Shown here in pieces: positions 3,899 through 47,962 of a stretch of 64,000 bases of DNA. How positions within the stretch are numbered: position 1 is the first letter of the stretch; every line of letters starts with the position of its first letter. The translations under genes were made by a program, and so were the position numbers. Source of the stretch: a virus (taxonomy: Duplodnaviria; Heunggongvirae; Uroviricota; Caudoviricetes). The notes below the pieces were generated by a model. That model had not been told where the DNA came from and did no database searches. It saw nothing but the letters and a program-made list of their open reading frames with translations. Location: IMG/VR virus record IMGVR_UViG_3300001687_001192; one strand, written 5' to 3'.

Positions 3899-4908
3899 AA
3901 AAGAAAACTGCATTAATAACTGGCGTTGCTGGACAGGCTGGAAGTTATATGGCTGAGTTTCTTTTGGAAAAAGATTATGAGGTTGTTGGTGTAATTAGAC
4001 GAAACGCAACGAGAAATTTAGGCACTGTAGCCCATTTAGAGAGCGAAATAGATATAGTAGAGGGCGATGTAACAGATATGTCTTCTATGTTGAAGATAAT
4101 ACAGGATGTCCGCCCAAAAGAATTATACAATCTTGCTGCTCAATCTCATGTCCATACAAGTTTTGAACAACCCGTGGCGGCAATAAATATTAATACGCTT
4201 GGGGTAATTAATATATTAGAAACAGTTAAGGTATTAGGGTATTCTACCAGAATATATCAGGCTAGCACTTCTGAATTGTGGGGGTCTTCGCCCCCGCCCC
4301 AAAATGAAGAAACAATAATGCAACCACAATCGCCTTATGCCATAGCTAAACTGGCGGCTCATTGGTTAGTTAAACTTTATAGAAAAGCATATAAAATGTA
4401 TTGTTGCTGTGGCATAACTCACAACTTTGAAAGTCCCAGAAGAGGGCCGCTTTTTGTTACAAGAAAAATTTCGATGGGCGTCGCAAAATGTCTACAAAAT
4501 TCCAAATACAAACTAAAACTGGGCAATTTAAATGCTCAAAGGGATTGGGGATATTGTCCAGATTATGTGAAGGGCTGGTGGCAAATGCTTCAACAAGAAA
4601 CGCCCGATGATTTTGTTTTTGCCACAAACGAAATGCATTCCGTAAAAGAGTTTTGTGAAATAGCGTTTTCACACGTAGGTTTGAACTGGGAAGATTATGT
4701 AGAAGTAGATAGATTTCTTCGGAGACCAGCAGAAGTAGAGGCTTTGTGTGGCGACTATTCTAAAGCTAAAGAAATTTTAGGTTGGGAACCTAAAATAAAA
4801 TTTGAGGAACTGGTTAAAATTATGGTTGAACATGATTGTAAACTTTTAGGAGTATATCCAGATGCGAGTGATAAACACGACTGCGAAACTGAACCTATGT
4901 TTGAATAA
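3895..4908 (+). CDS. gmd: GDP-mannose 4,6-dehydratase
   Basis: ALITGVAGQAGSY, YNLAAQSHV, YQASTSEL, SPYAIAK, FVTRKI, LGNLNAQRDWG, RPAEV. Confidence 0.95.
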   Translation: MKKKTALITGVAGQAGSYMAEFLLEKDYEVVGVIRRNATRNLGTVAHLESEIDIVEGDVTDMSSMLKIIQDVRPKELYNLAAQSHVHTSFEQPVAAININTLGVINILETVKVLGYSTRIYQASTSELWGSSPPPQNEETIMQPQSPYAIAKLAAHWLVKLYRKAYKMYCCCGITHNFESPRRGPLFVTRKISMGVAKCLQNSKYKLKLGNLNAQRDWGYCPDYVKGWWQMLQQETPDDFVFATNEMHSVKEFCEIAFSHVGLNWEDYVEVDRFLRRPAEVEALCGDYSKAKEILGWEPKIKFEELVKIMVEHDCKLLGVYPDASDKHDCETEPMFE

Positions 4909-5164
4909 AAAATTAAAATTCCACCCAGATTATATAAAGTGGTTAAGTACCTGGGACTCAAATATTACTAGAAGTCCAACATTTATAATTCATGATTTTT
5001 GCTTTTCAGATAAGCATAAAGCATTTTGGCTCAGGTTGTATTGCCAAGGACGTACGAAAGATTTGGAATATTGGATTACGCCGGACAATAAAATGTATAT
5101 ATTGCCGGGAGTAACTACATTTTTAAGAAATTATGATGGTAAAGTATTTATAAATACAGAGTAA
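4862..5164 (+). CDS. Hypothetical protein, begins MRVINT
   Basis: 100-aa ORF overlapping the non-conserved tail of gmd; start fits the shared N-terminal motif. Confidence 0.55.
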   Translation: MRVINTTAKLNLCLNKKLKFHPDYIKWLSTWDSNITRSPTFIIHDFCFSDKHKAFWLRLYCQGRTKDLEYWITPDNKMYILPGVTTFLRNYDGKVFINTE

Positions 5165-5168
5165 AGGA

Positions 5169-5432
5169 ATGAAAATTCTAAATACTGATAAATTTAAAGT
5201 AGAGATTGGGGATAAAATAGAATTAAATCACAACTATAAAAAAATTTTAAAGAATTATAAAGATACTTTTTATATTGTAAAAAATATAACATATGTTAAA
5301 GAAGAGTTGTGGTTGGAAGTTTTAGATTCCAGTGGAAAACCATGGTTTATTGATATAACACCAAACAACAGACTTTTGCCGAAAGAAAAGTTCATGAACT
5401 ATAAGGGTAGAGTAATAAGGAAAATAAGGTGA
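5169..5432 (+). CDS. Hypothetical protein, begins MKILNT
   Basis: 87-aa ORF with AAGGA upstream, in operon. Confidence 0.7.
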   Translation: MKILNTDKFKVEIGDKIELNHNYKKILKNYKDTFYIVKNITYVKEELWLEVLDSSGKPWFIDITPNNRLLPKEKFMNYKGRVIRKIR

Positions 5433-5773
5433 AAATTGTAAATCCAAATAGATTTTTAGTACGTGTCGGTGATATGTTAGAATACAATCAAAAAGCAATA
5501 GATTATATTAATGTTTTCAAGAAAAAATTGGGGCATAAAATAATGCCTTCTGCCCCTGAACTTAATAAGCAAAATCCAACTGTTAAAAAATATGAAAAAG
5601 GTGTGGCTAGTAATGGAGAAAAATTTATAGAATTGTGGGTTGAACACAATGATAAATATACTGGATTTTCTGGTGTTGTTTGGGGTCCAAAAACAGATGT
5701 GTGGTGCCTAGATTTAGATGGCAGCATTAATGGATGTCCAGATCCTTTGTTTAAAAGGAAAATTGTAAATTAG
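5429..5773 (+). CDS. Hypothetical protein, begins MKIVNP (GTG start)
   Basis: GTGA overlap with previous ORF; N-terminus similar to ORF 5169 (K.h.N...F.V.hGD.hE). Confidence 0.7.
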   Translation: MKIVNPNRFLVRVGDMLEYNQKAIDYINVFKKKLGHKIMPSAPELNKQNPTVKKYEKGVASNGEKFIELWVEHNDKYTGFSGVVWGPKTDVWCLDLDGSINGCPDPLFKRKIVN

Positions 5774-5783
5774 GGGGAGATTA

Positions 5784-6584
5784 ATGTCTATTGGAATATT
5801 TGTGCCCTGTTTTAATGTGAGACCTTATATTAGAGAATCACTAGAAAGCATTTTAAAACAAACTTACAAAGATTGGGAGCTTGTTATTATAGATGATTGT
5901 TCTACAGATGGTACTTATGAAAAACTTAAAAGTTTTCGTACGTGGCTTTCTGATGATAATTTCTCCATTCATCAAAGAGAAAGTCATTGTGGCTTAATAG
6001 GTAAAGTTAAAAACGAGGCCATCTCCAAGTTTACTAGAGAGCATGAATATATATGTCATGTTGGCTCAGATGATATAATACCAGAATATTGTTTACAAGT
6101 ATGTGTAGATTATATGGATAAACATCCAGAAATAGGAGCGTGCTGTGGAAACTTTGTATGTTTTGACGACCAAGGTAACAAATGGACTTTTCCGCATGTG
6201 GCAAACAGCGGAGACTATGATCCAAGTGTCCTTCTTCGATATATGTGTTTATTTCCCCACAGATTTTATCGTCGGTCTGTGGTAGAACAAGTTGGTGGAT
6301 ATTCAAATGAACTTAGTTCTGCTGTTGATTATGACCTTGCTTTAAAACTAGATGAGGTAACTCAAATACATAGAATAAAAGATCCAATTACATATTATTA
6401 TCGGCAACATGCACAGCAAGTTTCTACAAGAGCGCGACCCGAACAGGATGCAAATGCTAAAAAAGCCTTAAAAGCTGCCCTTGAGAGAAGAAATATAGAT
6501 GCGATTGTTAAAAATGAAAAAATGCCCTTTGAAATTAAATATATAGAAGAAGAACATTTTATATGGGGAGGCGGCGGTGAGTAG
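5784..6584 (+). CDS. Glycosyltransferase family 2
   Basis: FVPCFN, WELVIIDDCSTDGT, SDD, VGGY...VDYDL..KL, YYYRQH. Confidence 0.9.
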   Translation: MSIGIFVPCFNVRPYIRESLESILKQTYKDWELVIIDDCSTDGTYEKLKSFRTWLSDDNFSIHQRESHCGLIGKVKNEAISKFTREHEYICHVGSDDIIPEYCLQVCVDYMDKHPEIGACCGNFVCFDDQGNKWTFPHVANSGDYDPSVLLRYMCLFPHRFYRRSVVEQVGGYSNELSSAVDYDLALKLDEVTQIHRIKDPITYYYRQHAQQVSTRARPEQDANAKKALKAALERRNIDAIVKNEKMPFEIKYIEEEHFIWGGGGE

Positions 6585-7428
6585 AAAGAAAAAGACGAAA
6601 ATCTTAGTGTGTGGGTCGGCCCAGTTTTTGATATCAAATTTTATACGTTACATTTTGTATAGGTCACAAGATTATAACATTGTAAGCGTAGATAATTTAG
6701 AAAAGCCATCCGACATTAAAAGAATTTATTTTCATAAAAATCATAGGTTTTATGTTGGTGATTCATCCGATGAATATTTTATAGATAGGATATTTTATAT
6801 AGAGAGGCCTAATATAATAATATGTGGCGATGAACAGCTTGATTATGAAAAATTATTAAAAACGGCGCAAAATTTAATTAAATTTAATGTGCCTATTATT
6901 ACAATATCTCCAACCGTATGTTGTGGTGAAGGAAATGATTTATATGGGATCTATAGCTCTGTAGATAAATTTATTACAACTAATAGAGGTATGGTAATAA
7001 GGTTACCAAATAGATTTGGAATGCGACAAAGACCAAGTATGCTTGAAAAGCAAGGAGTAAATCTGGCGTATATTATGGGCTGCGTTTTAAATAAAATTTA
7101 TTTTAAAGTTAATAATGTTGAGTTACCTTGGGTATATGCTGAAGATGTTGCATCTTTTCTTTGGTATTCAATAGAGAATTATCAAAAGGGCGAGACCATT
7201 TATATGCCGCCGCTTGGATTGAAGAGTGGTAAAGATATAGTTGAAAAAGTAATTGAAATGTATAACTTAAAGTCTGTTCCACATTGCGTTGAAGAAATTC
7301 CTAATGCAAATTGTGGTAATGAAGTTTATCGTATGGTTGGATGGATTCCAGATTCACAAGATATGGAGCATGCTTTAGAGAAGACTATTAAGTGGTTTGA
7401 TGTTAATAGGTGGGCCTTTAATGAGTAA
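6577..7428 (+). CDS. Degenerate dTDP-glucose 4,6-dehydratase (RmlB)-like NAD-dependent epimerase fold
   Basis: ILVCGSAQFLISNFIRY...VDNL and LEKTIKWF..N.W resemble RmlB termini; GxxGxxG and YxxxK not intact. Confidence 0.65.
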   Translation: MSRKKKTKILVCGSAQFLISNFIRYILYRSQDYNIVSVDNLEKPSDIKRIYFHKNHRFYVGDSSDEYFIDRIFYIERPNIIICGDEQLDYEKLLKTAQNLIKFNVPIITISPTVCCGEGNDLYGIYSSVDKFITTNRGMVIRLPNRFGMRQRPSMLEKQGVNLAYIMGCVLNKIYFKVNNVELPWVYAEDVASFLWYSIENYQKGETIYMPPLGLKSGKDIVEKVIEMYNLKSVPHCVEEIPNANCGNEVYRMVGWIPDSQDMEHALEKTIKWFDVNRWAFNE

Positions 7429-7455
7429 TAAAATATTTTCCTCGCCTCTTCGAAA

Positions 7456-7486
7456 TTGACTTAACTCGGACATCCGGGTTTGTCAA
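7456..7486 (+). promoter_or_regulatory. Intergenic inverted repeat upstream of tubulin gene
   Basis: TTGAC-TTAA-CTCGGA-CA-TCCGGG-TTT-GTCAA hairpin. Confidence 0.4.
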
Positions 7487-7517
7487 GAAAAAAATGCACA
7501 AAGGAGTGAAAAAAATT

Positions 7518-8963
7518 ATGGCTGATGAAAAAACAATTAAAAATCGGGTGGTTGTCACAGACGAAGTCGGTGAGGTGACTCGTGTGAAGTCCGACGCCGA
7601 AATTGTTGAAGAAAACCGACAACTCGAAGAAGCTTTGCGAGCCAAAAAAGAAAAGCCAGAAGTGCCAAAACTAGATCCAAACGTTCTTGCAAAACTAAAA
7701 GAGAAATCAATGGAGGATAATAAAATGAAGGCCGTTACGAAACGTGATAGAAGCCTGTATTTCGGAATAGTCGGATTGGGACAAGCGGGCAGCCGAATCA
7801 CGGAAACGTGTTATGGGTTGGGATATGAGGCATGTGTATTCAATACTGCCACTCAAGACCTTGAACATATTAAACTTCCTGATAACAAAAAAATCTTTCT
7901 ACCATTTGCACTAGGAGGTGCTGGCAAAGAACTGGATAATGGTAGACAGGCAGTAGAACAAAATGGAGAACTTATTCTTCAAAAACTTAATGAGACTTTT
8001 GGCGACGAACAAGAAATGCTGATATTAGCTGTCTCAGGTGGCGGTGGAACGGGCTCAGGCGGCGCAGAAGCGCTTTTAGGGCTGATGGCCTCACTTGGCA
8101 AGCCGATTGGCGTAATTTATGTGCTGCCAATGGAATCTGAAGATGCGCTGAGCAAACATAACTCTGTAGTAACATTGGGTAAATTGGCCAAGATGGCAAG
8201 CACAGACGCCATCACAACGTTAATTGTTGTCGACAATGCTAAAATCGAGCTAATATATCCAGGATTGAGCAAAGCCGATTTTTGGAACACGGCTAACAAC
8301 GCCATCGTTGAGCCTCTGCATTTGTTTAATCATTTGTCTGCTATGCCAACACAATACGATAGTCTAGATTCAATGGATTTTGGAAGGATCTTTACTACAG
8401 GAGACTGCACAATTTATGGGATGTTGGAAGTAGAAGATTATATGGAGACAACAGCTATAGCAGAAGCTGTAGTAGAAAACCTAGAAGCTGGTTTGCTTAC
8501 GAACGATTTTAATCTCAAAGAAACTAGGTTTGGTGGATTTATCGTAACTGGCAGCCCAGAAGTTCTCAGAGAGCTTCCAGCTATGAACATTCATTATGCT
8601 TCCCACATGATTAGTGAAGCATGTGATTCTCCCAGCTTAGTAAGCGGCGTTTATGAAGTTCCAACCAAGGACAATATCGTTAGGGTTTATACGCTTTTTA
8701 GTGGACTTGGCTTACCGTCGGCCAGGATAGAGGCGCTACAAAAAGACGCAGGCGAAAGAATGGCGGTTCTACGAGAAAAGGAAAAATCCCGTGCAGACAA
8801 AATGAACATAGAATATGGATCTGGTGTAGATACCAAATCTAAAGCTCAAGAGGTCCATAGAATGATTCAACAAAAAAAATCAGGCTTTGGAAAATTGACC
8901 GGTAATGCTAGTAAAAAAGTGTCAGGTAGTACAAAGGTAATTAAGGATAGGAGAAAACGATGA
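7518..8963 (+). CDS. Tubulin/FtsZ-family GTPase (PhuZ/TubZ-like) with N- and C-terminal extensions
   Basis: GLGQAGSRI, signature GGGGTGSGG, VVDNAK, LDSMDF; RBS AAGGAG at 7501. Confidence 0.9.
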   Translation: MADEKTIKNRVVVTDEVGEVTRVKSDAEIVEENRQLEEALRAKKEKPEVPKLDPNVLAKLKEKSMEDNKMKAVTKRDRSLYFGIVGLGQAGSRITETCYGLGYEACVFNTATQDLEHIKLPDNKKIFLPFALGGAGKELDNGRQAVEQNGELILQKLNETFGDEQEMLILAVSGGGGTGSGGAEALLGLMASLGKPIGVIYVLPMESEDALSKHNSVVTLGKLAKMASTDAITTLIVVDNAKIELIYPGLSKADFWNTANNAIVEPLHLFNHLSAMPTQYDSLDSMDFGRIFTTGDCTIYGMLEVEDYMETTAIAEAVVENLEAGLLTNDFNLKETRFGGFIVTGSPEVLRELPAMNIHYASHMISEACDSPSLVSGVYEVPTKDNIVRVYTLFSGLGLPSARIEALQKDAGERMAVLREKEKSRADKMNIEYGSGVDTKSKAQEVHRMIQQKKSGFGKLTGNASKKVSGSTKVIKDRRKR

Positions 8964-8991
8964 AAACCAAGGAGAAAACGATGAAAACCAA
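8950..8991 (+). repeat. Perfect 21-nt tandem duplication containing RBS and ATG
   Basis: GGAGAAAACGATGAAAACCAA x2 (8950-8970, 8971-8991). Confidence 0.95.
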
Positions 8992-9340
8992 AATTGAAGA
9001 GTTGGAAGCATATTTTAATATGCAAAGACAAGCTGGTCATACTACAGCTGTAATTCGTGGCGCAGCGGCAGTTGCCGATGATAAAAAAAGAACTATTATA
9101 ATTGCACATAACGAAGAAATGGCCCGCTATATACGTGGAATGATAGCACAAGAATATGCAGAAGCATATGATTACATAAAAGTTATATCAGTTCATAGCC
9201 TGGAAAAACTGCGTGGCATGTCCGGTCCCATGTTGGTTGACAATGCTGTATTTTGTACACTGGCCGCAGAGGCTAGGAAATTAAGAGAAGAAAAAGAACA
9301 GCTAGAAGAAAAGATAGAAGCAATTAAAAAGGTAATATAA
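8960..9340 (+). CDS. Small protein with degenerate P-loop-like motif
   Basis: RQAGHTT (Walker A-like, K to H), IIIAHN, MLVDN; alternative start at 8981. Confidence 0.6.
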   Translation: MKTKEKTMKTKIEELEAYFNMQRQAGHTTAVIRGAAAVADDKKRTIIIAHNEEMARYIRGMIAQEYAEAYDYIKVISVHSLEKLRGMSGPMLVDNAVFCTLAAEARKLREEKEQLEEKIEAIKKVI

Positions 9341-9342
9341 AA

Positions 9343-9567
9343 GTGATTATCACCGGCCAGCACCCCGACGCCAAAAAGATACATGTCTATAATAGATATG
9401 GGCATTTAATATCGAAAATTCTTGAAATAGATACACATAAAATGATTGCTAAAATTAGTAGCGATAACGGGGTAGAAGTAGTAAAAGTATATAAAATAAA
9501 AGGGCCGGGCATCTATTTTAAAAGAAAGCCGCTTAGCTCAAGAACCATAAATACGAGAAAGAAATGA
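9343..9567 (+). CDS. Hypothetical protein
   Basis: 74-aa GTG ORF filling the operon gap, ATGA overlap downstream. Confidence 0.55.
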   Translation: MIITGQHPDAKKIHVYNRYGHLISKILEIDTHKMIAKISSDNGVEVVKVYKIKGPGIYFKRKPLSSRTINTRKK

Positions 9568-11093
9568 CAGTTCAAATTGTTGTTAACAATGTATGGTCCC
9601 GCATACGTGGCCTCAAAAATATTAAAACCGTTGATGCCTTGGATAGGAAAACTAGCTTTTACGTTGAGGGGTACCAATATACCAAAGCTTTCAGAGAAGG
9701 GTTTTATGATCATAAGCGCGGACGCTTTGTACATTGGGACGGGAAAAAGCATTTGTTAACACAGAAGATGGTTTTTCCAACCGGTCTTTTGTCAAGGGTG
9801 CGCAAATTTCTTGAAAAATATGGTGAAGATGTAGAGATTATTGATCAAAGAGGTGATGTAAAGTTAGGTCGAGAAATTAAAATTAAGAAATACACTCCTA
9901 GAAAATATCAGCAGGAAGCTGCAGATGCTGCTATTGCGCAAGGTCGCGGAATTATTAGGGTTGGGACCGGAGGCGGCAAGACGCTGATTTCCGCAATGAT
10001 TACCGCAAAGTACAACGTGCCGACTATGATTTATGTAGTAGGTAAAGATCTGCTTTACCAGTTTCATAAGGAAATGGAAAAGACTTTAGGGATAAAGGTT
10101 GGCATTATCGGCGATGGTCACTGCGACGTTAAAAAGATTAACGTATGTTCTGTCTGGACTGCTATTACAGCCTTTAATTTAAAAACCAAGATATCCTTAG
10201 ATGATGAGGATTGGTCACCAGAAGTTGTCTCTGTCGATAATAAGGGTAAGGCGCGGATCAGAGAAGCCATACAAAAATCAAAATTATCTATCTTTGATGA
10301 AGCTCATTTTTTGGCCACTGATACATTACAATCCATCTTCAAAGCCAGTAAAAATTGCCGCTATTTGTTCGGCCTGTCTGGTACGGACTGGCGAGATGAT
10401 GGCGCAGATCTTTTGCTAGAATCGGTATGCGGTGAGCGCATTTACAATATGCCGTCCTCTAAGCTGATTGAACAGAACTTTTTAGTGCCACCAAATATTG
10501 TTCTACTAGACGTCCCGCAATATGAAGGAGATCTTAACAAAAACTACTCATCTATATACAGCAGATATATTACCAAAAACTCTGTAAGGAACGGCATGGT
10601 AGTAGACTCTGCCCGCAAGTTAATAGATAAGGGTAAAAAGGTACTTATATTGGTACGATATCTTTCCCACGGCAATGCAATAGCAGAAGAGCTTTCAGAT
10701 CTGCCAATATATTTTGTTAATGGTGAAGTAGACGGCAAAACCAGGATCGCTGTGAAACGCGATTTCGAAAATGGCGAGCTTAAATGTCTAATAGCTTCGA
10801 GCGTTTTCGACATCGGAATAAATATACCTAGTTTAGACGCATTAATACTTGCTGGCGGAGGAAAATCAACGGTTCGTACTTTACAACGAATAGGAAGGGT
10901 TATTCGTACATGCGGTAACAAAAAGCGTGCTATTGTAGTAGATTTTATAGATAATGCGAAATATTTGGATAAGCATTCTGCAATAAGAATAGCAGTATAT
11001 GAGACAGAGCCGCTGTTTAAAATGAAATTTCCGAAGAATTTTGACCGATCTGTTCTGAAAGCTCCGAGCAAAATAATCCGAAAAGTAAAATAA
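9564..11093 (+). CDS. Superfamily 2 helicase (UvsW/Rad25-like)
   Basis: GTGGGKT, DEAH, GLSGT, FDIGINIP, QRIGRVIR. Confidence 0.92.
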   Translation: MTVQIVVNNVWSRIRGLKNIKTVDALDRKTSFYVEGYQYTKAFREGFYDHKRGRFVHWDGKKHLLTQKMVFPTGLLSRVRKFLEKYGEDVEIIDQRGDVKLGREIKIKKYTPRKYQQEAADAAIAQGRGIIRVGTGGGKTLISAMITAKYNVPTMIYVVGKDLLYQFHKEMEKTLGIKVGIIGDGHCDVKKINVCSVWTAITAFNLKTKISLDDEDWSPEVVSVDNKGKARIREAIQKSKLSIFDEAHFLATDTLQSIFKASKNCRYLFGLSGTDWRDDGADLLLESVCGERIYNMPSSKLIEQNFLVPPNIVLLDVPQYEGDLNKNYSSIYSRYITKNSVRNGMVVDSARKLIDKGKKVLILVRYLSHGNAIAEELSDLPIYFVNGEVDGKTRIAVKRDFENGELKCLIASSVFDIGINIPSLDALILAGGGKSTVRTLQRIGRVIRTCGNKKRAIVVDFIDNAKYLDKHSAIRIAVYETEPLFKMKFPKNFDRSVLKAPSKIIRKVK

Positions 11094-11098
11094 AAAAC

Positions 11099-11156
11099 GC
11101 ATTTTTCAATGGTTTTCGACGTTTGGCTAAATAATGTCGACAAAAGTTGAGAGTGC
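11099..11156 (+). promoter_or_regulatory. Intergenic imperfect stem-loop
   Basis: GCATTTTTCAA/TTGAGAGTGC outer arms and TTTTCGAC/GTCGACAAAA inner arms. Confidence 0.35.
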
Positions 11157-11183
11157 GCAATAAATCAGGAAAAGAGAGGCAAG

Positions 11184-34708: not shown

Positions 34709-35464
34709 ATGATAGTTTATATAAAAGATAGAGAAGATATAGAAAATTTTAAATTGGTTGGCAAATGCACTGCGGAAATACTTTCAATATTACTTAACAA
34801 AGCAAAAGAAGGAGTAACTACTAGAGAACTTGATTCAGTGGCACAAACAGAATGCCAAAATCGCGGCGTCACGCCGGCATTTTTAAACTATCGCGGCTTC
34901 CCGGCCGCGATTTGCACATCTGTCAATAAAACTTTGGTGCACGGGGTTCCTGATGATACGGCCCTTGTAAACGGTGACATATTGTCGATAGATATTGGTG
35001 TAGAAAAACAAGGATATATAGGAGACTCAGCTGAGTCCATTATCGTGGGCGGCGAACCAAATGATTTGATAGAGAAATGTAGGATCGCTTTAAAAAATGG
35101 AATTGACAAGGTTAGGGCTGGCAACAGACTGAGCAACATATCACAAGCAATTTATGACGTTTCTAGAAAAGCTGGATATTCGATAGCGCGTGGATATGGG
35201 GGGCATGGGATTGACAGACACCGTTTACATGCGGATCCCTTTGTGTCGAACATTCCAGTTGAAGATGAAGACGACATAAAGTTGCGTCCAGGTATGATTA
35301 TTGCCATAGAACCAATGTTAATCGCTTATAATAATGGAAAGACACGTGTGTCGGATCAAGACAACTGGTCCGTTATCGCAAGTGGCATGGCTGCTCATTG
35401 TGAACATACTATTTTAGTAACAGACGGGAAGCCATTTATTTTAACAGATAGGAGTAATAATTGA
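34709..35464 (+). CDS. map: Methionine aminopeptidase type I
   Basis: GFPAAICTSVN...HGVP, GDILSIDIG, GYIGDSA, GGHGI, IAIEPM, AHCEHTI. Confidence 0.95.
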   Translation: MIVYIKDREDIENFKLVGKCTAEILSILLNKAKEGVTTRELDSVAQTECQNRGVTPAFLNYRGFPAAICTSVNKTLVHGVPDDTALVNGDILSIDIGVEKQGYIGDSAESIIVGGEPNDLIEKCRIALKNGIDKVRAGNRLSNISQAIYDVSRKAGYSIARGYGGHGIDRHRLHADPFVSNIPVEDEDDIKLRPGMIIAIEPMLIAYNNGKTRVSDQDNWSVIASGMAAHCEHTILVTDGKPFILTDRSNN

Positions 35465-38206: not shown

Positions 38207-38208
38207 CT

Positions 38209-39084: not shown

Positions 39085-39172
39085 ATGTAACTAATAATTG
39101 TCGACTACGCCCGTTATTCTGGAATATATTGTTTTTATAGAAGGGAAATAATAATTTGAGGTATTTATCAAA

Positions 39173-39454: not shown

Positions 39455-39663
39455 CAAAAGAAAAAATATTAAAATTCGAAGACGAAAGTTTTTTACGAGT
39501 AACAATAGAAGAAAACGGGGCAACAACTATTACTTTGCAGGCTAAGCATCTGGGAAGCAATATTAAAACCACATCGGCTACTATAAATTTAAAGCCGGAT
39601 GAAGTTATTGAGTTGGTTGCCTGGATGGGTCAGGAGTTAACGGATGAATGCTCAAATGGTTGA
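39451..39663 (+). CDS. Hypothetical protein
   Basis: 70-aa ORF in operon. Confidence 0.65.
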   Translation: MTKEKILKFEDESFLRVTIEENGATTITLQAKHLGSNIKTTSATINLKPDEVIELVAWMGQELTDECSNG

Positions 39664-41481: not shown

Positions 41482-41486
41482 AAAAA

Positions 41487-42209: not shown

Positions 42210-42211
42210 AA

Positions 42212-42409
42212 ATGGTTGATTTTACTACCCTCATGAATCGCGGTCATAGAAGATTCCTAGCACACCAAAAGAAAAGAAATTTTGGGCCATGCGAAGATTG
42301 CGGGGAATATTCTTTGCTTCTAGAATATAAAGACCCTACAGATAAAGATGCGAACTGGCTCGTCTGCGATTATTGTTACAAAAAACTGGAAACTGACGAG
42401 GATGAATAA
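42212..42409 (+). CDS. Small CxxC...CxxC zinc-binding protein
   Basis: CEDC...CDYC. Confidence 0.65.
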   Translation: MVDFTTLMNRGHRRFLAHQKKRNFGPCEDCGEYSLLLEYKDPTDKDANWLVCDYCYKKLETDEDE

Positions 42410-42420
42410 AAGGCGGAGTT

Positions 42421-42720
42421 ATGAAATTGGTTAATAGCAAAGATATTAAACAAATCGTTGATGATAAATCCGATCCAGGAGATCTATACGATTTTTTAGA
42501 AGAAGAATTAAAAAGCCCCTGCTGGGAAGTTAATGTTGACTGGGAGAACGGCAAGCTTAGATTTCTAATTGATTCCAGGGAGCTAATGAATTATCCGTTA
42601 TCTAAGCTTAATAAAGACGATATTAATTTACCCAACATATATGAGTGGCTTCAGATACTTAAGACCGAGGATATAAAGCTGCTTAGAAATACACTAAAAA
42701 CTTTCGAGAAAAGGAAATGA
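42421..42720 (+). CDS. Hypothetical protein, begins MKLVNS
   Basis: GGAG RBS. Confidence 0.7.
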   Translation: MKLVNSKDIKQIVDDKSDPGDLYDFLEEELKSPCWEVNVDWENGKLRFLIDSRELMNYPLSKLNKDDINLPNIYEWLQILKTEDIKLLRNTLKTFEKRK

Positions 42721-43199
42721 AGGATAAAATCATGGCAAAAGAAGGAAATGCGTTAGTTAGTAAGACTATATTGATAGTGTCACTGTGTGTGCTTGGGCTT
42801 GTTGCAGCGGTAGCCGGCGGATATTTATTGTGTGATCATCTCTGGGCTGGTGCGACTTGCAGCGAAGAAAGTCGTATACAATTATCAGCAAAGATGATAA
42901 CAGATTTTGAGCAAGGCAAAGCGTTGTTTTGTGATTTATCAGAAGACGAAAGATTTGCGATTTGTCCCACTTATAGACTAACTGAGAAGTTTGACGATGG
43001 TGGTACAATTACAACGTACATATGTAGCCATACCACAGCGTATGCAGAGACGCGCGATTTGGGTACGGAATCTAGGGCTAAGATTAATGAAAAATTAGAA
43101 CTTTTTAGAGAAGTGGCAGATATCGAGGCTCATTGTACTACTAAAAGAGGAGTGGTGTACAAAATTGTCCAAGATGCACAAGAACCGACATTATACTAA
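42717..43199 (+). CDS. Hypothetical protein with N-terminal transmembrane segment
   Basis: ILIVSLCVLGLVAAVAGGYLL; several Cys. Confidence 0.7.
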   Translation: MKDKIMAKEGNALVSKTILIVSLCVLGLVAAVAGGYLLCDHLWAGATCSEESRIQLSAKMITDFEQGKALFCDLSEDERFAICPTYRLTEKFDDGGTITTYICSHTTAYAETRDLGTESRAKINEKLELFREVADIEAHCTTKRGVVYKIVQDAQEPTLY

Positions 43200-43473
43200 T
43201 GATTCGACGGGCCAGATACCACAAATACTCGAGAGTCTAATGAAAGCTCTGCACGATTTAGAAGTTGTGATGGAAAATTCTGCAGTTAAGGATAACCCAA
43301 GAGTGCAAGCTGCTAGAGAGAAACTGATCGAAACCATAAGGAAAGAAGTAGTTGCCACAGCAGACTTGGCCGCGTCAATTAAATTGGCCTATCCGCTATT
43401 AGAGCAACTGCAGAATGTTATGCCGGTCTCGTTTCCGTTTTCTAAAAAGGAAGATGATGAGGATAAATCCTAA
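43165..43473 (+). CDS. Hypothetical protein
   Basis: 102-aa ORF; exact start uncertain. Confidence 0.6.
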   Translation: MSKMHKNRHYTNDSTGQIPQILESLMKALHDLEVVMENSAVKDNPRVQAAREKLIETIRKEVVATADLAASIKLAYPLLEQLQNVMPVSFPFSKKEDDEDKS

Positions 43474-43493
43474 CAGGGAGTGTCTACGGGATT

Positions 43494-43907
43494 TTGAAAA
43501 AAATCTTTCCGGCGCACAAGCCAAAACAATTGGAGTTTATTCAGCAGCGACATACCAAGGATTGTGGTGTGGCTTGCGCAGCTATGCTCGCAGATCGAAT
43601 GTATAAAGAGATAGAAGCTATTTTCCATATTTTAGAGAAATCTACAAGAAGCATATATCCCGATGATGTATTTGAAGTGTTGGATGAAATTGGCTATGAC
43701 TATGATGAGGTGGCTCATCTGCCAAAAAGAGGCAGAGCGCTCGTAGCCATAGAATGGAAAAATGAAGGTTTTACTGGCCATTATGTCGTTTGGGATAGTT
43801 CAAGGGGTCAATTTTTAGATCCCTTGCACGGTGTAATGGGCAAAAGAGAGATGCTGAAGTATGCTTCTATTGATTATATATGGAGAATAATAAGGAGAAA
43901 GAAGTGA
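43494..43907 (+). CDS. Peptidase C39-like cysteine peptidase
   Basis: QQRHTKDCGVACAAM, GHYVVWD, FLDP. Confidence 0.8.
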   Translation: MKKIFPAHKPKQLEFIQQRHTKDCGVACAAMLADRMYKEIEAIFHILEKSTRSIYPDDVFEVLDEIGYDYDEVAHLPKRGRALVAIEWKNEGFTGHYVVWDSSRGQFLDPLHGVMGKREMLKYASIDYIWRIIRRKK

Positions 43908-44155
43908 AGCTGCTTAACGTAAAAAAATTGAAAAAAACCTCTGAGTATTCGATCTCTACGGCGAGTCCAATATTCAGGATAAAGGTTGTTAAGAAAGAAC
44001 CATTAAAAATGCCCACAGCCTTCTCTTTTTTTATTCAGTATGTGTATGGCGTGGAGATCATACCATCATATAGAACTATACAAAAGAGCCAACGGGCTCT
44101 GAACAGAAAAGGTATGGGTAATATAGATGAGATTAATAAATACGAAAAAAGGTAA
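43904..44155 (+). CDS. Hypothetical protein, begins MKLLNV (GTG)
   Basis: AAGGAG RBS, GTGA overlap with C39 stop. Confidence 0.65.
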   Translation: MKLLNVKKLKKTSEYSISTASPIFRIKVVKKEPLKMPTAFSFFIQYVYGVEIIPSYRTIQKSQRALNRKGMGNIDEINKYEKR

Positions 44156-44711
44156 TCAACAACTCATAAGGCTCGTTGGACTGACCCCGGGAACTAGACT
44201 GGGCATATATTATGCCGATGCTATTGGCAGCGATAGAATTTTGTACACAGAATTTGCGGTCGGAAATATTGGAGATTATAATACGGCTCAAAGTAAAATA
44301 GTTCTTCTAAAAGATTACTTTAGAAGTGTGAGTCCGCTTCCCAGGGACATACCAAAAAAAGGCGTCCTGAGAATTAGAAACCCTGACTCTGGTGCGTATA
44401 TGAGGTTCCCGTATTGGTCAGTAAACAGGGCATCTAATATATTTTTTCTTAATAATGCTATCGGAAATATAACTGGTGGCAAAGATTTAGTAGAGGGACG
44501 CGAAGTGTTCATACCGTTTGTTGAACAACAAATCGTTGAAGGGTCAGAAATATCTTATACAATTCAAAACGATGGCCAAGATATATCTGTGGTTATTAGG
44601 GCTAGAAAAAAAGGTTATCTCCCCATGCAACGGATAGCTTCCGCATCAACATATATGCTCTTGAACCAACAAATCGACCCGATCTTTGAGCCGCTTGACA
44701 ACCGCTCGTAA
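44127..44711 (+). CDS. Hypothetical protein, begins MRLINT
   Basis: 194-aa ORF. Confidence 0.7.
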   Translation: MRLINTKKGNQQLIRLVGLTPGTRLGIYYADAIGSDRILYTEFAVGNIGDYNTAQSKIVLLKDYFRSVSPLPRDIPKKGVLRIRNPDSGAYMRFPYWSVNRASNIFFLNNAIGNITGGKDLVEGREVFIPFVEQQIVEGSEISYTIQNDGQDISVVIRARKKGYLPMQRIASASTYMLLNQQIDPIFEPLDNRS

Positions 44712-44741
44712 AGACTTATGTTATTAAGACTATAACATAAG
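44695..44741 (+). promoter_or_regulatory. Sigma70-like promoter with overlapping 10-bp inverted repeat
   Basis: TTGACA-16-TATGTT; CTTATGTTAT-7 nt-ATAACATAAG overlapping -10 and the TAAGGAGG RBS. Confidence 0.6.
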
Positions 44742-44751
44742 GAGGCAAGAA

Positions 44752-45492
44752 ATGATGATGAAAATTAATAATATAGAACAAGCTCTTGAGATTATTGCAG
44801 AAAGTATCAGGCAGTCAACAGTGAGTGTAGAAATTCTCGCACCAGGTGCTAGTTCAAAAGAACAGCTGCTACATATCGTACATCAAATCAAGAAAGAAAT
44901 ATTCTGGAAAAGCATACGGTTAATGGCTTTTGGTGTGTTATTCCCAGACAAAATATATCGCTCTAAAAAGAAAGAGTTCAAGAAAATCAAACGAGCCTGC
45001 AAGTTTATACTTAAATATAAGGGCTTGGACGAATATTTAGGAAAATTATCATGGACGCATTTATTCGAGTTTGGCCCGTTTGCAAATGTTAGTTGGGTGC
45101 TTAAATACTATAGTTCTGGTGATTTACAAAGATCACAATCCAAATATAGAAGTGCAGATTCTAAAGGGCGTCCGCTTTTTGGTGGGTGTTTTGAGCGTTC
45201 TGGAGCAAAGTTAAAAGAGAATGAAACATACAGAGTGATCAGAATTGTTGATGAAAAAACAGGCCAAGACACATTTACAGTAGAAAAAAGGGAAAAGACA
45301 CCGATAGAACAGAGACTTAAGATGCTTCCGATGTCTGCAACTATAGTAGTGTCCGAAAACGATAATATAATGATTGTCAAAAACATCTTAGAAGAGACAC
45401 TAAAACAACTAAATCTGGAGCTTAATAAAGATTCAGAAGAAAAAATTGTCAAAAATGTGAGCAAAAAGATGGGGTTTCATGAAGATGAATGA
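44752..45492 (+). CDS. Hypothetical protein
   Basis: 246-aa ORF, AAGGAGG RBS. Confidence 0.75.
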   Translation: MMMKINNIEQALEIIAESIRQSTVSVEILAPGASSKEQLLHIVHQIKKEIFWKSIRLMAFGVLFPDKIYRSKKKEFKKIKRACKFILKYKGLDEYLGKLSWTHLFEFGPFANVSWVLKYYSSGDLQRSQSKYRSADSKGRPLFGGCFERSGAKLKENETYRVIRIVDEKTGQDTFTVEKREKTPIEQRLKMLPMSATIVVSENDNIMIVKNILEETLKQLNLELNKDSEEKIVKNVSKKMGFHEDE

Positions 45493-45790
45493 TAGGCTTA
45501 AAGAGTGGTTTGATACGAAAGGAAGAAGACTGGCTGAACTAAAAGCTGCTGGCGGCCAGGAGTATATGATTTTGGGGTACACGGAAAAGCTCACTAAAAA
45601 AGAGCTTGAAGAATTTAAGACTCTTGGAATACAAATGGATGCGCTTATCTGGGCGTTCATGCCGGACAATCTCGATGATCAAGAAAATTATATCCTAGAA
45701 ATTAAAGAATTCTTTTCTGATATAGAAGATCCGTATTTTAAAGCAAAAGAGATTGTGAAAGGCAAAAAACTACCTAGAGGATACGCTTAA
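45479..45790 (+). CDS. Hypothetical protein
   Basis: 103-aa ORF. Confidence 0.65.
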   Translation: MKMNDRLKEWFDTKGRRLAELKAAGGQEYMILGYTEKLTKKELEEFKTLGIQMDALIWAFMPDNLDDQENYILEIKEFFSDIEDPYFKAKEIVKGKKLPRGYA

Positions 45791-45979
45791 ATGGCAAAAG
45801 TCATAAATTCTAAGGAGATAAGGGCCAAAAAACTTGTTGATGCTCTTATCAAATCTATATCAAGACACTTCCAAAAACATCTGAATAAGTGTGTTGGTGA
45901 TATCGCCACTGATCCCAACGGAAATTTTGATGTTTTCACCGATCCTATTTTACCCAAAAATAATAATAAAAAGTTATAA
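45791..45979 (+). CDS. Hypothetical protein, begins MAKVINS
   Basis: Abuts the previous stop. Confidence 0.6.
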   Translation: MAKVINSKEIRAKKLVDALIKSISRHFQKHLNKCVGDIATDPNGNFDVFTDPILPKNNNKKL

Positions 45980-46001
45980 ACATTGAGGAGGGTTATGGAA
46001 T

Positions 46002-46223
46002 TTGACAACTGTAATCAATAGTTCACAAAAAATATCTTATAAGGTTTATGTAAGAGGTGTGGGCATGCGAATGGTTACGTTTGAGACGCTCCGGGTACCA
46101 TGGTGGTACCGCATATTTCGGAAGCCAAATGGCAGGTTAATAGCGCTCGAAGAAATGGATGAGGGTTATCGAAGAGGGTGGAGCTTCGTGGCTTCGATCT
46201 TGATACCAGACGAATTAAAATGA
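46002..46223 (+). CDS. Hypothetical protein, begins MTTVINS (TTG)
   Basis: ATGA-coupled to next ORF. Confidence 0.55.
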   Translation: MTTVINSSQKISYKVYVRGVGMRMVTFETLRVPWWYRIFRKPNGRLIALEEMDEGYRRGWSFVASILIPDELK

Positions 46224-46384
46224 AATTATTAAATGCGGGCAAACCATTGCTAATACATGAGTTAAAACAATGCCATGAATGCAAGCATATCTTTGTTTAC
46301 AGTAGAAACATTATCAACCCCAAGCTAAATAAAATACTAATATATTGTCCAAATTGTGGGTATAAGATACGCATTTATCTATGA
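46220..46384 (+). CDS. Small zinc-ribbon protein, begins MKLLNA
   Basis: CHEC...CPNC; ATGA overlaps at both ends. Confidence 0.65.
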   Translation: MKLLNAGKPLLIHELKQCHECKHIFVYSRNIINPKLNKILIYCPNCGYKIRIYL

Positions 46385-46644
46385 GATGTTTTAATCCAAA
46401 TAATAAAAACAGAGCCATAGTAAAAGAATTTTTCTGGACTTCTCAGTTTAATTGGCAGGGCAATAGGTATGTCAGCGCGGGTTCACATACGTTTACAGTA
46501 AAGTATCTTTGCCCCCGCTGTCGGTATCGGTCAGTGCAGATTACAGAATATGATGACGATGGGCCGTGGGAAATCGAATGCCCGCACTGTGGTCTTGATG
46601 TATTTATTCCGGCATCCGCCGAATTGACTAATAGGAAAAGATAA
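46381..46644 (+). CDS. Small zinc-ribbon protein, begins MRCFNP
   Basis: CPRC...CPHC. Confidence 0.7.
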   Translation: MRCFNPNNKNRAIVKEFFWTSQFNWQGNRYVSAGSHTFTVKYLCPRCRYRSVQITEYDDDGPWEIECPHCGLDVFIPASAELTNRKR

Positions 46645-46985
46645 TGAAAGAAAAGAATAGCAACGACATATATATCAAAAAGATATCTGACAATCCAATA
46701 CAAAATGGGCCAGATGAAAAGGATGCTTCGGATTTATATGTTACTTCTCCGTATCCATGGACACCAGTGTATGATATAGGCTCCTCAAAGGCAGAATATG
46801 TGCCCAGATGTGTTTCAATAAAGTTGCAGTTTTATTGTCCTACATGCTTTTCTATGTTTGTAATAGAACGTTCATATTTTAGGACAACTGATAAAATGAC
46901 TTGTTTTTGTGGGACTAAGCTAAAATTTGAGAAGGCGCAGTGTTTTCGTATGAGGAACGAGGAGTTTTTTTATGAAATTGCTTAA
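46644..46985 (+). CDS. Zinc-ribbon protein
   Basis: CPTC...CFCG; TAATG overlap. Confidence 0.65.
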   Translation: MKEKNSNDIYIKKISDNPIQNGPDEKDASDLYVTSPYPWTPVYDIGSSKAEYVPRCVSIKLQFYCPTCFSMFVIERSYFRTTDKMTCFCGTKLKFEKAQCFRMRNEEFFYEIA

Positions 46986-47157
46986 TGCAAAACGGAAATC
47001 TGAGAAATATGAAAGATTAGAAAAAAGTCTAAATATGTTAGTGGAAGACGGTTATATAAAGGGCTGGAAAGATCTAAAGATTGATGGTAACGGTATATCG
47101 TATACAATAGTGCCTGTCGAACCTGTGAAATTCTGGGTATGTGACATAAAACTGTGA
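46972..47157 (+). CDS. Hypothetical protein, begins MKLLNA
   Basis: GAGGAG RBS. Confidence 0.65.
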   Translation: MKLLNAKRKSEKYERLEKSLNMLVEDGYIKGWKDLKIDGNGISYTIVPVEPVKFWVCDIKL

Positions 47158-47314
47158 GATTACTAAACTCCAGAGGCGGAACAGTAGTTGTGTCGCTTGC
47201 GAAAAATGTGCAGCAGCATTATATTTTTATATACGCCGGAATTATAAAAATGCAAGCACATCTGTTTTTTGTCCATCTTGTGGGCAAGATTTGCTTGTGA
47301 CCATAAAATCATGA
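47154..47314 (+). pseudogene. Frameshifted small zinc-ribbon gene
   Basis: GTG 47154 MRLLNSRGGTVV in one frame; ACEKC...FCPSCG..TIKS* in the -1 frame, ending TGA 47312-47314 over the next ATG. Confidence 0.6.
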
Positions 47315-47523
47315 GGGTTTTGAATAAAAAAACAAAAGTCCTGACATTTGACGAAGAACAAGACGATCCGCCTAATGGATTCCATTTTTTCTTGTCATGT
47401 CATTGTTTCCATTGTGCAGAAATGATTTATATCTACTGCAATAAAACGAAGCCGCGAAGATTTAATACGAATTGCCCATCTTGCGGGGCGGCAGCAAGTT
47501 GGTTTACTTCCCATGGATCATGA
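47311..47523 (+). CDS. Zinc-ribbon paralogue 1, begins MRVLNK
   Basis: GF.F...CFHC..MIYIYC...CPSC. Confidence 0.7.
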   Translation: MRVLNKKTKVLTFDEEQDDPPNGFHFFLSCHCFHCAEMIYIYCNKTKPRRFNTNCPSCGAAASWFTSHGS

Positions 47524-47774
47524 AGATATTAAATAGCAAAATAAAAGTTCTGTCTTTCGTTAGCACAATTACAACTCACGAAGGTTTCTTTTTTTGGGGT
47601 AGTTGGACGTGTGACAGCTGCGATAAGAAAATGTTTATATACTGTAGTCACAAGGGTCCTCATAAGTGGCTAAAAACACAATGCCCGCATTGCTCCGAGA
47701 AAGTATTTATAATGACGGTTCATGGGATTTTCGATGCACTTTCCACCAAGCTGGCCAAAACGCACAAATTATGA
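47520..47774 (+). CDS. Zinc-ribbon paralogue 2, begins MKILNS
   Basis: GFFF...CDSC.KKMFIYC...CPHC. Confidence 0.7.
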   Translation: MKILNSKIKVLSFVSTITTHEGFFFWGSWTCDSCDKKMFIYCSHKGPHKWLKTQCPHCSEKVFIMTVHGIFDALSTKLAKTHKL

Positions 47775-47962
47775 AACTCCTGAACTCAAAAGTAAAAATT
47801 ACGGTATTCGCAAAAAGAAAAACTCCATATCACGGCTTTCGACTTATCTGGGCCAGCAAATGTTGGGGCTGCAAAAAAGAAATGTACGTCTACTGTAACA
47901 AGAAATGCTCCTCGCCTTTTTGGTTTAATTGTCCCCATTGCAACTTCCCTTATTACGTATAA
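47771..47962 (+). CDS. Zinc-ribbon paralogue 3, begins MKLLNS
   Basis: GFRL...CWGC.KEMYVYC...CPHC. Confidence 0.7.
   Translation: MKLLNSKVKITVFAKRKTPYHGFRLIWASKCWGCKKEMYVYCNKKCSSPFWFNCPHCNFPYYV

What the first reader, a model, noticed from the sequence alone, without database searches (positions are those of the whole stretch)
4862..47962. Shared N-terminal leader M-[KR]-h-h-N on about 15 otherwise unrelated small proteins
Seen: MRVINT (4862), MKILNT (5169), MKIVNP (5429), MKLVNS (42421), MKLLNV (43904), MRLINT (44127), MKLLNA (46220), MRCFNP (46381), MKLLNA (46972), MRLLNS (47154), MRVLNK (47311), MKILNS (47520) and MKLLNS (47771). MAKVINS (45791) and MTTVINS (46002) are offset variants. 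Codons differ (AAA/AAG/AGA/AGG/CGA; AAT/AAC), so conservation is at protein level. No enzyme or structural gene here starts this way. Known: T4 internal proteins share a short N-terminal capsid-targeting sequence. Inference: this is an undescribed sorting tag for capsid loading, ejection, compartment import or proteolysis.
Basis: partly seen in the sequence, partly recalled or inferred. Interest (0 to 1): 0.8.

Follow-up and report, generated by a model that had tools for sequence, protein, structure and literature searches.

The report
Shared six-residue start on phage mini-proteins
A group of uncultured giant phages begins dozens of otherwise unrelated small proteins with the same six amino acids (Met-Lys-hydrophobic-hydrophobic-Asn-Ser/Thr), which behaves like a portable address label kept by selection on the protein, although what reads the label is still unknown.

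Summary
Thirteen small + strand genes in the window start with M-[KR]-h-h-N, against about 0.05 expected. Two more carry it one residue later. No gene over 200 aa has it. The 15 proteins fall into about 11 unrelated groups, including two paralog trios.

The fuller consensus is M-K-[LIV]-[LIVF]-N-[ST], followed by a polar or basic stretch. Selection acts on the protein: 14-15 different codons encode each hydrophobic position, and Ser6 uses both codon families. The motif persists in relatives from 32 to 61% GC and is nearly absent from gene starts in T4 and phage G.

Syntenic relatives yielded 60 tagged proteins in 36 sequence clusters, none with a Pfam family. In a complete 442-kb relative the tag is confined to about 15 kb, the variable gene array beside a C39-like peptidase gene and topoisomerase IB. 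Relatives whose conserved 99-aa gene lacks the tag have no tagged neighbours. AlphaFold places the tag outside the folded core in two families.

My best reading is a short N-terminal docking or address tag read by one shared partner, with capsid loading as in T4 the favoured job. Degron, peptidase leader and translation effects are not excluded. The scan noted the same motif earlier in another genome (e1-5390283).

The parts
4862..5164 (+). Tagged ORF, 100 aa, MRVINT. It overlaps the end of the upstream dehydratase-like gene by 47 nt, and an AGGAG lies upstream.
   Evidence: Likely a paralog of 5169.
5169..5432 (+). Tagged ORF, 87 aa, MKILNT.
5429..5773 (+). Tagged ORF, 114 aa, GTG start overlapping the upstream stop, MKIVNP.
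42421..42720 (+). Tagged ORF, 99 aa, MKLVNS. It is the one tagged family conserved across the clade.
   Evidence: M1, K2 and N5 are among the best-kept columns. AlphaFold gives the core (30-99) pLDDT >90 and residues 1-5 <50.
43904..44155 (+). Tagged ORF, 83 aa, GTG start overlapping the stop of the C39-like gene, MKLLNV.
   Evidence: AAGGAG lies upstream.
44127..44711 (+). Tagged ORF, 194 aa, MRLINT. It is an ORFan.
45791..45979 (+). Offset variant, 62 aa, MAKVINS. After the expected Met removal, Asn is again residue 5.
   Evidence: The Met-aminopeptidase rule is established knowledge, so the spacing is an inference.
46002..46223 (+). Offset variant, 73 aa, TTG start, MTTVINS.
46220..46384 (+). 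Tagged ORF, 54 aa, MKLLNA. It is a zinc-ribbon mini-protein.
   Evidence: An ortholog in L042 is also tagged.
46381..46644 (+). Tagged ORF, 87 aa, MRCFNP, with a zinc ribbon.
   Evidence: Tagged orthologs occur in L037, L042 and L043.
46972..47157 (+). Tagged ORF, 61 aa, MKLLNA.
47154..47300 (+). Tagged ORF, 48 aa, GTG start, MRLLNS. It may be a decayed copy.
   Evidence: It has no homolog and was not called by the public gene callers.
47311..47523 (+). Tagged ORF, 70 aa, MRVLNK. It belongs to the zinc-ribbon paralog family.
47520..47774 (+). Tagged ORF, 84 aa, MKILNS. It belongs to the zinc-ribbon paralog family.
47771..47962 (+). Tagged ORF, 63 aa, MKLLNS. It belongs to the zinc-ribbon paralog family.
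   Evidence: N5 is invariant like the four Cys ligands. Residues 1-9 are coil in the AlphaFold model.
43494..43907 (+). Context, not a tagged gene. This is a stand-alone C39-like cysteine peptidase of 137 aa with a TTG start, sitting at the head of the variable tagged array. It is a candidate reader, and the link is unproven.

Best explanation
M-K-[LIV]-[LIVF]-N-[ST], followed by a polar or basic spacer, is a portable short linear tag at the free N terminus. It has been placed on many unrelated, fast-turning-over mini-proteins of one accessory-gene array in a clade of huge phages. I infer that one shared partner recognises it in trans and measures from the N terminus, because Asn is always residue 5 of the expected mature chain.

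Shown here: selection at the protein level, separability from the protein body, restriction to a clade and to one locus, all-or-none presence among neighbouring genes, and predicted lack of structure.

Inferred: that a reader exists, and what it does. My favoured job is routing these small proteins to a common destination, most likely the capsid interior for delivery with the DNA, as the T4 capsid-targeting sequence does. In this window the tagged proteins are mostly basic and often zinc-ribbon proteins. I put the capsid sub-case alone at about 0.25. The confidence below is for 'a tag read in trans by a shared partner, other than a degradation or C39 cleavage signal'.
For: 1. Enrichment and position. 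13 are observed against about 0.05 expected. The motif occurs only at gene starts, only on genes of 200 aa or less, and only on the coding strand. It is nearly absent from T4 and phage G gene starts.

2. Protein-level selection. Codon third and first positions are free, and Ser6 uses both codon families. The motif is kept in relatives from 32% to 61% GC.

3. Portability. 60 non-redundant tagged proteins from 13 related contigs fall into 36 BLAST clusters once the first 9 residues are removed. None of 59 has a Pfam family. Non-homologous genes occupy the same array in different phages, yet all carry the tag.

4. Separability. The conserved 99-aa family exists with the tag in 31 of 67 cluster representatives. 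In the rest the tag is absent or decayed, and the protein begins at the following helix.

5. System-like behaviour. The three syntenic relatives whose copy of that family lacks the tag (L052, L077, L081) have no tagged neighbour among about 35 small genes. Every relative with a tagged copy and a sequenced array has 1-11 further tagged genes.

6. Structure. In two unrelated families the tag is the best-conserved segment but lies outside the confident fold. In the 99-aa family residues 1-5 have pLDDT <50 against >90 for the core. In the zinc-ribbon family residues 1-9 are coil, while N5 is as invariant as the Cys ligands.

7. Spacing. The +1 offset variants have A, T or G as residue 2, so Met excision would restore Asn to position 5 (inference).

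8. Capsid sub-case. [quoted passage not shown] The bodies of the window's tagged proteins are basic, median pI 9.1 against 5.4 for untagged small proteins (p = 0.009). The array of a tagless relative holds a Tad3 anti-defence domain and ankyrin proteins, which suggests an accessory or counter-defence island.
Against: No reader was identified.

The tag lacks the protease site that ends the T4 capsid-targeting sequence and comparable leaders. There is no conserved Glu, and positions 7-10 are K/S/N/R.

The genes sit among nucleotide-metabolism and topoisomerase genes, not head genes. No expression timing is available.

The basic-pI signal is not significant over all 59 tagged proteins (p = 0.17).

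The all-or-none pattern rests on few, phylogenetically clustered tagless contigs.

Six residues is short for a specific docking motif.
Confidence: 0.5

Rival explanations
1. N-terminal degron. The tag makes these accessory proteins short-lived by presenting an unstructured N terminus to a host AAA+ protease such as ClpXP, limiting them to a window of the infection cycle.
For: [quoted passage not shown] 2003). The tag sits strictly at the free N terminus and is predicted to be unstructured. Phage regulators degraded by host proteases are well known (my own knowledge).
Against: Position 5 is an invariant Asn, where the ClpX motif requires a hydrophobic residue. No ClpX zinc-finger gene was found in three related phage records; one has a ClpP-like gene. 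A degron would not obviously need to be restricted to a clade and a locus.
Confidence: 0.15
2. Co-translational or translational effect. The first six codons, or the nascent hexapeptide, tune initiation, re-initiation after the overlapping upstream stop, or early elongation for genes of this tightly coupled operon.
For: Most tagged genes overlap or abut the upstream stop (ATGA or GTGA), which forces codon 2 to begin with A. AAA is the commonest codon 2, in 37 of 53. The motif never occurs away from a start.
Against: Conservation is of amino-acid class, not of RNA sequence. It persists at 54-61% GC. Highly expressed or large genes do not carry it. An invariant Asn5 followed by Ser/Thr6 has no known role in initiation. 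Untagged genes in the same operon are coupled in the same way.
Confidence: 0.12
3. Cleavable leader or recognition handle for the neighbouring stand-alone C39-like cysteine peptidase (43494-43907). This would resemble C39 domains removing a common leader from many variable bacteriocin precursors, or Prp removing one N-terminal motif from L27 and from non-homologous phage proteins.
For: The peptidase gene heads the tagged array in every tag-bearing contig, although those contigs were retrieved through that gene. Its Gln, Cys, His and Asp are invariant in 13 homologs and align with the ComA C39 domain. A homolog has an unmarked precomputed Pfam C39 hit. Prp is a precedent for one protease acting on a shared N-terminal motif of unrelated proteins (PMC5744158).
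Against: C39 enzymes cut after Gly-Gly at the end of a 15-30-residue leader. Here only six residues are conserved and there is no Gly-Gly. Tagless relatives L052, L077 and L081 keep an intact peptidase gene. The first tagged cluster in the window lies 38 kb away. The peptidase may instead act on the h-S-K-R-A sites in the genes downstream (see Noticed in passing).
Confidence: 0.08
4. Inheritance only. All tagged genes descend from one ancestral mini-gene by tandem duplication. Their bodies diverged beyond recognition, while the first residues were kept for a reason internal to each protein.
For: Two paralog trios exist in the window. The genes are clustered in tandem. About a third are zinc-ribbon proteins.
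Against: The bodies have different predicted architectures: a helix plus three-strand and two-helix domain, against an all-beta zinc ribbon. Lengths range from 40 to 194 aa. In both models the tag is not part of the fold, so no internal structural reason is visible. One conserved family occurs with and without the tag.
Confidence: 0.08

Closest known systems
Capsid targeting sequence (CTS) of the T4 / T-even internal proteins IPI, IPII, IPIII and Alt
   Same: A short shared N-terminal leader on a hypervariable set of otherwise unrelated, often basic, accessory or counter-defence proteins that are clustered in the genome (PMC3012670).
   Different: The CTS is about 10 residues long and ends in the prohead-protease site (L/I-x-E). 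This tag is 6 residues, has an invariant Asn and no acidic residue. Packaging is not shown. The phage is not T4-like: it has a 341-aa HK97-type major head protein.
Prp-cleaved N-terminal motif shared by ribosomal protein L27 and the capsid, scaffold and tail proteins of staphylococcal phages
   Same: One short N-terminal motif on non-homologous proteins, read by a single cysteine protease (PMC5744158).
   Different: That motif is 13-14 residues long and ends in F|A. No F-A site occurs here and no Prp gene was examined. The neighbouring peptidase is C39-like, not Prp.
[quoted passage not shown]
   Same: The first four positions are identical in class. Both sit strictly at the N terminus and in an unstructured context.
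   Different: Position 5 is an invariant Asn rather than a hydrophobic residue. Degradation was not tested.
Double-glycine leaders processed by C39 peptidase domains (bacteriocin and RiPP precursor arrays)
   Same: One conserved leader on many variable cargo sequences, encoded next to a C39-type peptidase.
   Different: The leader here is far shorter and has no Gly-Gly. The cargo is folded proteins of 40-194 aa. No ABC transporter is fused to the peptidase.

Membership tests
T4-type capsid targeting sequence | Shared N-terminal leader on otherwise unrelated proteins of a hypervariable locus | tested here: met
   36 sequence clusters carry the tag. Non-homologous genes fill the same array in different phages.
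T4-type capsid targeting sequence | Leader ends in the prohead-protease cleavage motif (L/I-x-E) | tested here: not met
   The logo of 60 tags shows positions 7-10 dominated by K, S, N and R, with no conserved Glu.
T4-type capsid targeting sequence | Tagged proteins are present inside the capsid and the leader is removed | not testable with these tools
   The phage is uncultured and no proteome is available.
ClpX N-motif 2 degron | NH2-Met-basic-phi-phi at positions 1-4 | tested here: met
   54 of 60 tags have K/R at position 2, and all have hydrophobic residues at positions 3-4. Motif definition from PMC7857536.
ClpX N-motif 2 degron | Hydrophobic residue at position 5 | tested here: not met
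   Asn in 60 of 60.
ClpX N-motif 2 degron | ClpXP-dependent degradation | not testable with these tools
   Needs half-life measurements.
Double-glycine (C39-processed) leader | 15-30-residue leader ending in Gly-Gly, Gly-Ala or Gly-Ser | tested here: not met
   Conservation stops after residue 6-10. No conserved Gly pair occurs.
Peptidase C39 (for the neighbouring gene 43494-43907) | Gln (oxyanion hole), Cys, His and Asp in the family's order and spacing | tested here: met
   Q18, C24, H96 and D109 are invariant in 13 homologs. They align to the Q-x5-C, H and DP positions of the ComA peptidase domain.
Peptidase C39 (for the neighbouring gene 43494-43907) | Score above Pfam's curated threshold | tested here: inconclusive
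   The window protein scores 21.4 bits against a cut-off of 22. The precomputed hit for the L077 homolog is unmarked, meaning E <= 1e-5. The PDB profile match has E = 0.035.
Sec, Tat or lipoprotein signal peptide | Hydrophobic core of about 7-15 residues after a basic N-region (plus a lipobox Cys or twin Arg) | tested here: not met
   Only two hydrophobic residues occur, followed by Asn-Ser/Thr and a basic or polar stretch.

The most novel reading that the evidence does not exclude
A clade of huge phages has its own N-terminus-reading system. A six-residue label, counted from the free amino end with Asn at position 5, is put on a rapidly exchanging set of mini-proteins, which are candidate counter-defence or host-takeover factors. 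A dedicated reader, still unidentified, uses it to deliver, process or time them. This would be a second, mechanistically distinct solution beside the T4 capsid-targeting sequence, because it has no protease site.
Probability: 0.4. Interest if true: 0.75.

Novelty: new variant of a known kind. Interest (0 to 1): 0.62.

Why it matters
If the tag is an address label, it does three things.

- It gives a simple sequence rule for picking out the variable 'cargo' or effector set of a large uncultured group of phages. More than 1,700 major-capsid homologs were found in public data.
- It points to an unknown reader.
- It offers a minimal six-residue handle that could be tested for routing foreign proteins, as the T4 capsid-targeting sequence has been.

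It also shows that many huge-phage ORFans are organised as one functional class, not as unrelated orphans.

Tried and rejected
1. Structure prediction of the C39-like peptidase with the conserved tagged 99-aa protein gave no verdict (ipSAE 0.00-0.01). It counts neither for nor against binding.

2. I considered the conserved 65-aa zinc protein just upstream (42212-42409) as a marker or reader. It is present in all tag-bearing contigs and absent from tagless L052, L077 and L080. However, it is present in tagless L081 and L082, so I rejected it.

3. I considered the major head protein as the model for the tag. In the relatives it starts MS[LM]F[NS]T in about 115 of 120 representatives, which resembles h-h-N-T. 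It has no K/R, the spacing is one short after Met removal, and N/S does not co-vary with the tags (G003: capsid MSLFST, tags MKLINS). I left this as an unexplained resemblance.

4. The sigma-70 promoter scan of 39-48.2 kb found 32 sites against 26.5 expected, which is uninformative.

5. Foldseek of the 99-aa family model against PDB gave no match with E<0.1. The ESM Atlas search for the 194-aa tagged protein gave nothing above chance.

6. No relatives were found in the INPHARED phage collection by DNA. By protein, only phage G tubulin matched, at 24% identity. The 194-aa tagged protein has no homolog in 5.8 billion proteins.

7. L001 and L002 turned out identical to the window, so no strain-level dN/dS was possible.

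8. A literature search for six spellings of the hexapeptide found nothing.

9. Only tag-bearing large contigs are reachable.

Full report
WHAT THE WINDOW IS

The 64-kb window is part of an uncultured phage of about 461 kb. The contig length comes and from earlier notes of this scan. Nearly all genes lie on the + strand. They include:
- a tubulin/FtsZ-like protein (7494-8963)
- a UvsW-like helicase and a DnaB-like helicase
- a PrkA kinase
- ribonucleotide reductase
- a eukaryotic-type topoisomerase IB (48028-50685)

No whole genome is held for the window. The INPHARED phage collection holds no close relative. Identical DNA occurs in at least two other public samples.

THE OBSERVATION

A six-frame scan for a start codon followed by [KR]-h-h-N gives 17 hits. 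Thirteen are the starts of closely packed + strand ORFs, in two clusters at 4862-5773 and 42421-47962. None lies inside a large gene.

Against a 70-gene set, about 0.04-0.07 are expected. The split is 13 of 35 genes of 200 aa or less against 0 of 35 larger genes.

In AT-rich control phages, 50 kb of phage G has none at a gene start and 50 kb of T4 has one. The refutation proposed in the finding ('frequency as expected for AT-rich phage starts') therefore fails.

At the DNA level only the middle T of codons 3 and 4, the AA of codon 5 and the A-rich codon 2 are fixed. Fifteen and fourteen different codons encode the two hydrophobic positions. Ser6 is written with both AGY and TCN codons. Upstream, only a Shine-Dalgarno-like G run is conserved. 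Selection is therefore on the peptide.

HOW UNRELATED THE PROTEINS ARE

Without their first eight residues, 47311/47520/47771 are clear paralogs. 46220 and 46381 are weakly similar zinc-ribbon proteins. 4862/5169/5429 are probably a second paralog trio. The rest show nothing in common. The fifteen proteins represent about eleven groups. No Pfam or PHROG family explains any of them.

RELATIVES

Topoisomerase IB homologs led to syntenic contigs of other huge phages. A conserved gene inside the cluster led to many more.

That gene (43494-43907) encodes a 137-aa stand-alone C39-like cysteine peptidase. Its Gln, Cys, His and Asp are invariant, and it has a conserved TTG start.

In these relatives, small genes in the same array carry the same start. 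Their GC content ranges from 32 to 61% and their peptidase is 45-71% identical. Contig L039 has eleven such genes in 6.6 kb. All are on the coding strand and none on the opposite strand.

Pooling the data gave 60 non-redundant tagged proteins. They fall into 36 BLAST clusters once the first nine residues are removed. None of 59 has a Pfam family at E<=0.001 beyond two marginal zinc-ribbon hits.

The logo is M (58/60), K/R (54/60), L/V/I, L/I/V/F, N (60/60) and S/T (48/60). A K/S/N/R-rich stretch follows to about residue 10, and nothing is conserved after that.

Between phages the array genes are mostly not homologous, yet they keep the tag.

WHERE THE TAG IS AND IS NOT

I fetched a complete 442-kb relative (G002) in full. 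Plausible tagged gene starts lie only between 249 and 264 kb, next to the peptidase and topoisomerase genes. The tag therefore marks one accessory-gene region, not the proteome.

One tagged family, the 99-aa protein at 42421, is conserved across the clade. In it M1, K2 and N5 are among the best-kept columns at 27-49% overall identity.

A profile search of 1.84 billion cluster representatives found 67 members. Thirty-one are tagged. Thirty-six lack the tag or carry decayed versions such as MKLNT, MKTINT, MKLANS and MKFFTT, or begin directly at the helix that follows.

Three syntenic relatives have a copy of this family without the tag: L052, L077 and L081. All three keep the peptidase gene, but none of their roughly 35 neighbouring small genes is tagged.

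Every relative with a tagged copy and a sequenced array has further tagged genes. This all-or-none pattern is what a tag depending on a shared reader predicts. The tagless contigs are few and partly related to each other, so the evidence is limited.

STRUCTURE

AlphaFold2 on the 99-aa family gives a confident core (residues 30-99, pLDDT above 90) and an unconfident N-terminal 29 residues, with residues 1-5 below 50.

In the zinc-ribbon family residues 1-9 are coil and the first strand starts at residue 10, while Asn5 is as invariant as the four cysteines.

In both families the most conserved segment is not part of the fold. That is typical of a linear recognition motif.

The three +1 offset variants (MAKVINS, MTTVINS, and MGRIINS in L086) have a small second residue. 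Methionine aminopeptidase would remove the Met and restore Asn to position 5 of the mature chain. This is an inference from the known specificity of that enzyme.

WHAT IT DOES

No reader could be identified, so the mechanism is inferred.

I favour a trans-read address or docking tag (0.5). Capsid loading is the single most likely job (about 0.25), for these reasons:
- The closest known system has the same logic. [quoted passage not shown]
- The bodies of the window's tagged proteins are markedly basic, median pI 9.1 against 5.4 for untagged small proteins (p = 0.009). This is not significant over the whole pooled set (p = 0.17).
- The corresponding array in a tagless relative contains a Tad3 anti-defence domain and ankyrin proteins, so the array looks like a counter-defence island.

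Against the capsid reading:
- The tag has no protease-site ending.
- The genes are not near head genes.
- Nothing is known about expression timing.

RIVALS

- Degron. The tag matches the ClpX N-motif 2 at four positions but not at the fifth (PMC7857536). No ClpX zinc-finger gene was found in three related phage records, and one has a ClpP-like gene.
- Leader for the adjacent C39-like peptidase. Adjacency and intact catalytic residues speak for it. Prp is a precedent for one protease reading one N-terminal motif on non-homologous proteins (PMC5744158). Against it, there is no Gly-Gly, the conserved part is very short, and the peptidase persists in tagless relatives. A complex prediction gave no verdict.
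- Translational or nascent-peptide effect. Start-stop overlaps explain part of the K/R preference. They do not explain Asn5-Ser/Thr6, the freedom of codons, or the restriction to one locus.
- Pure inheritance from one ancestral mini-gene. This is disfavoured by the different predicted architectures and by the tag lying outside the fold.

COMPARISON AND NOVELTY

The class is known: a short N-terminal leader shared by diverse phage accessory proteins (T4 CTS, and Prp motifs in staphylococcal phages).

This motif differs in several ways. It is shorter, has an invariant Asn and no cleavage-site signature, and is confined to one array in a clade of huge phages with a 341-aa HK97-type capsid protein. 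I found no description in print.

The same motif was noted earlier in this scan on another genome (e1-5390283). That is not independent evidence, but my tests agree with it.

Noticed in passing
window 43494-43907; homologs in L004, L006, L009, L036-L054, L077, L081: A stand-alone C39-like cysteine peptidase of about 135 aa, with invariant Gln, Cys, His and Asp and a conserved non-ATG start (TTG in 12 of 14 relatives, GTG in one, possibly CTG in L004). It is always placed at the head of the variable small-gene array. Its substrate is unknown.
   Followed up: partly
window 48028, 50682, 51620; L006 16960 and 17250; L077 7953 and 8265; L086 13260 and 17235: A second N-terminal motif, (M)-x-x-[IL]-S-K-R-A, starts several larger proteins just downstream of the tagged array, here and in relatives (for example MKLSKRA). 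It could be a processing site and an alternative substrate for the C39-like peptidase. It is the subject of another first-stage note (e1-5431101).
   Followed up: no
G002 372770-373795 (L031:14573-15595:-); G003 187659-192111 (L073-L076): The 341-aa major head protein of the clade (phrog_2522) starts MS[LM]F[NS]T in about 115 of 120 cluster representatives, which resembles the tag. In G003 the gene is split into four pieces separated by 1-2.7 kb, which suggests introns, inteins or homing-endonuclease insertions. A LAGLIDADG endonuclease gene follows the G002 copy.
   Followed up: partly
L052 8379-9705: In a tagless relative the array holds three tandem paralogs of about 150 aa. They share a conserved C-terminal end (…H-x-G-M-[VI]-Y-N-x-Y-[ST]-x-x-W-x-[FW]-L-stop) instead of an N-terminal tag.
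   Followed up: no
L077 4906-5376, 7258-8855: The equivalent array of another tagless relative encodes a Tad3-domain protein (PF25185), a DUF4326 protein and two ankyrin-repeat proteins. This suggests the array is a counter-defence or host-interaction island.
   Followed up: no
window 48028-50685 and homologs P0005-P0121: In huge-phage contigs the topoisomerase IB core is fused to many different partners: CCA/poly(A) polymerase with HD, SET, ASCH, NUDIX, 2H phosphoesterase, GNAT, RNA ligase and superoxide dismutase.
   Followed up: no
window 47154-47962: Public gene callers missed or mis-called the four small tagged ORFs here; one called a 50-aa ORF on the opposite strand instead. Paralogy and conserved Cys ligands show that at least three of the ORFs are real.
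   Followed up: yes
window 34709-35464: A phage-encoded M24 (methionine-aminopeptidase-like) peptidase, 52% identical in relative L006. It could matter for N-terminal processing of phage proteins.
   Followed up: no
window 42212-42409: A conserved 65-aa protein with two Cys pairs lies immediately upstream of, and often overlaps, the tagged 99-aa gene in most relatives. It is much better conserved (40-63% identity) than its neighbours.
   Followed up: partly
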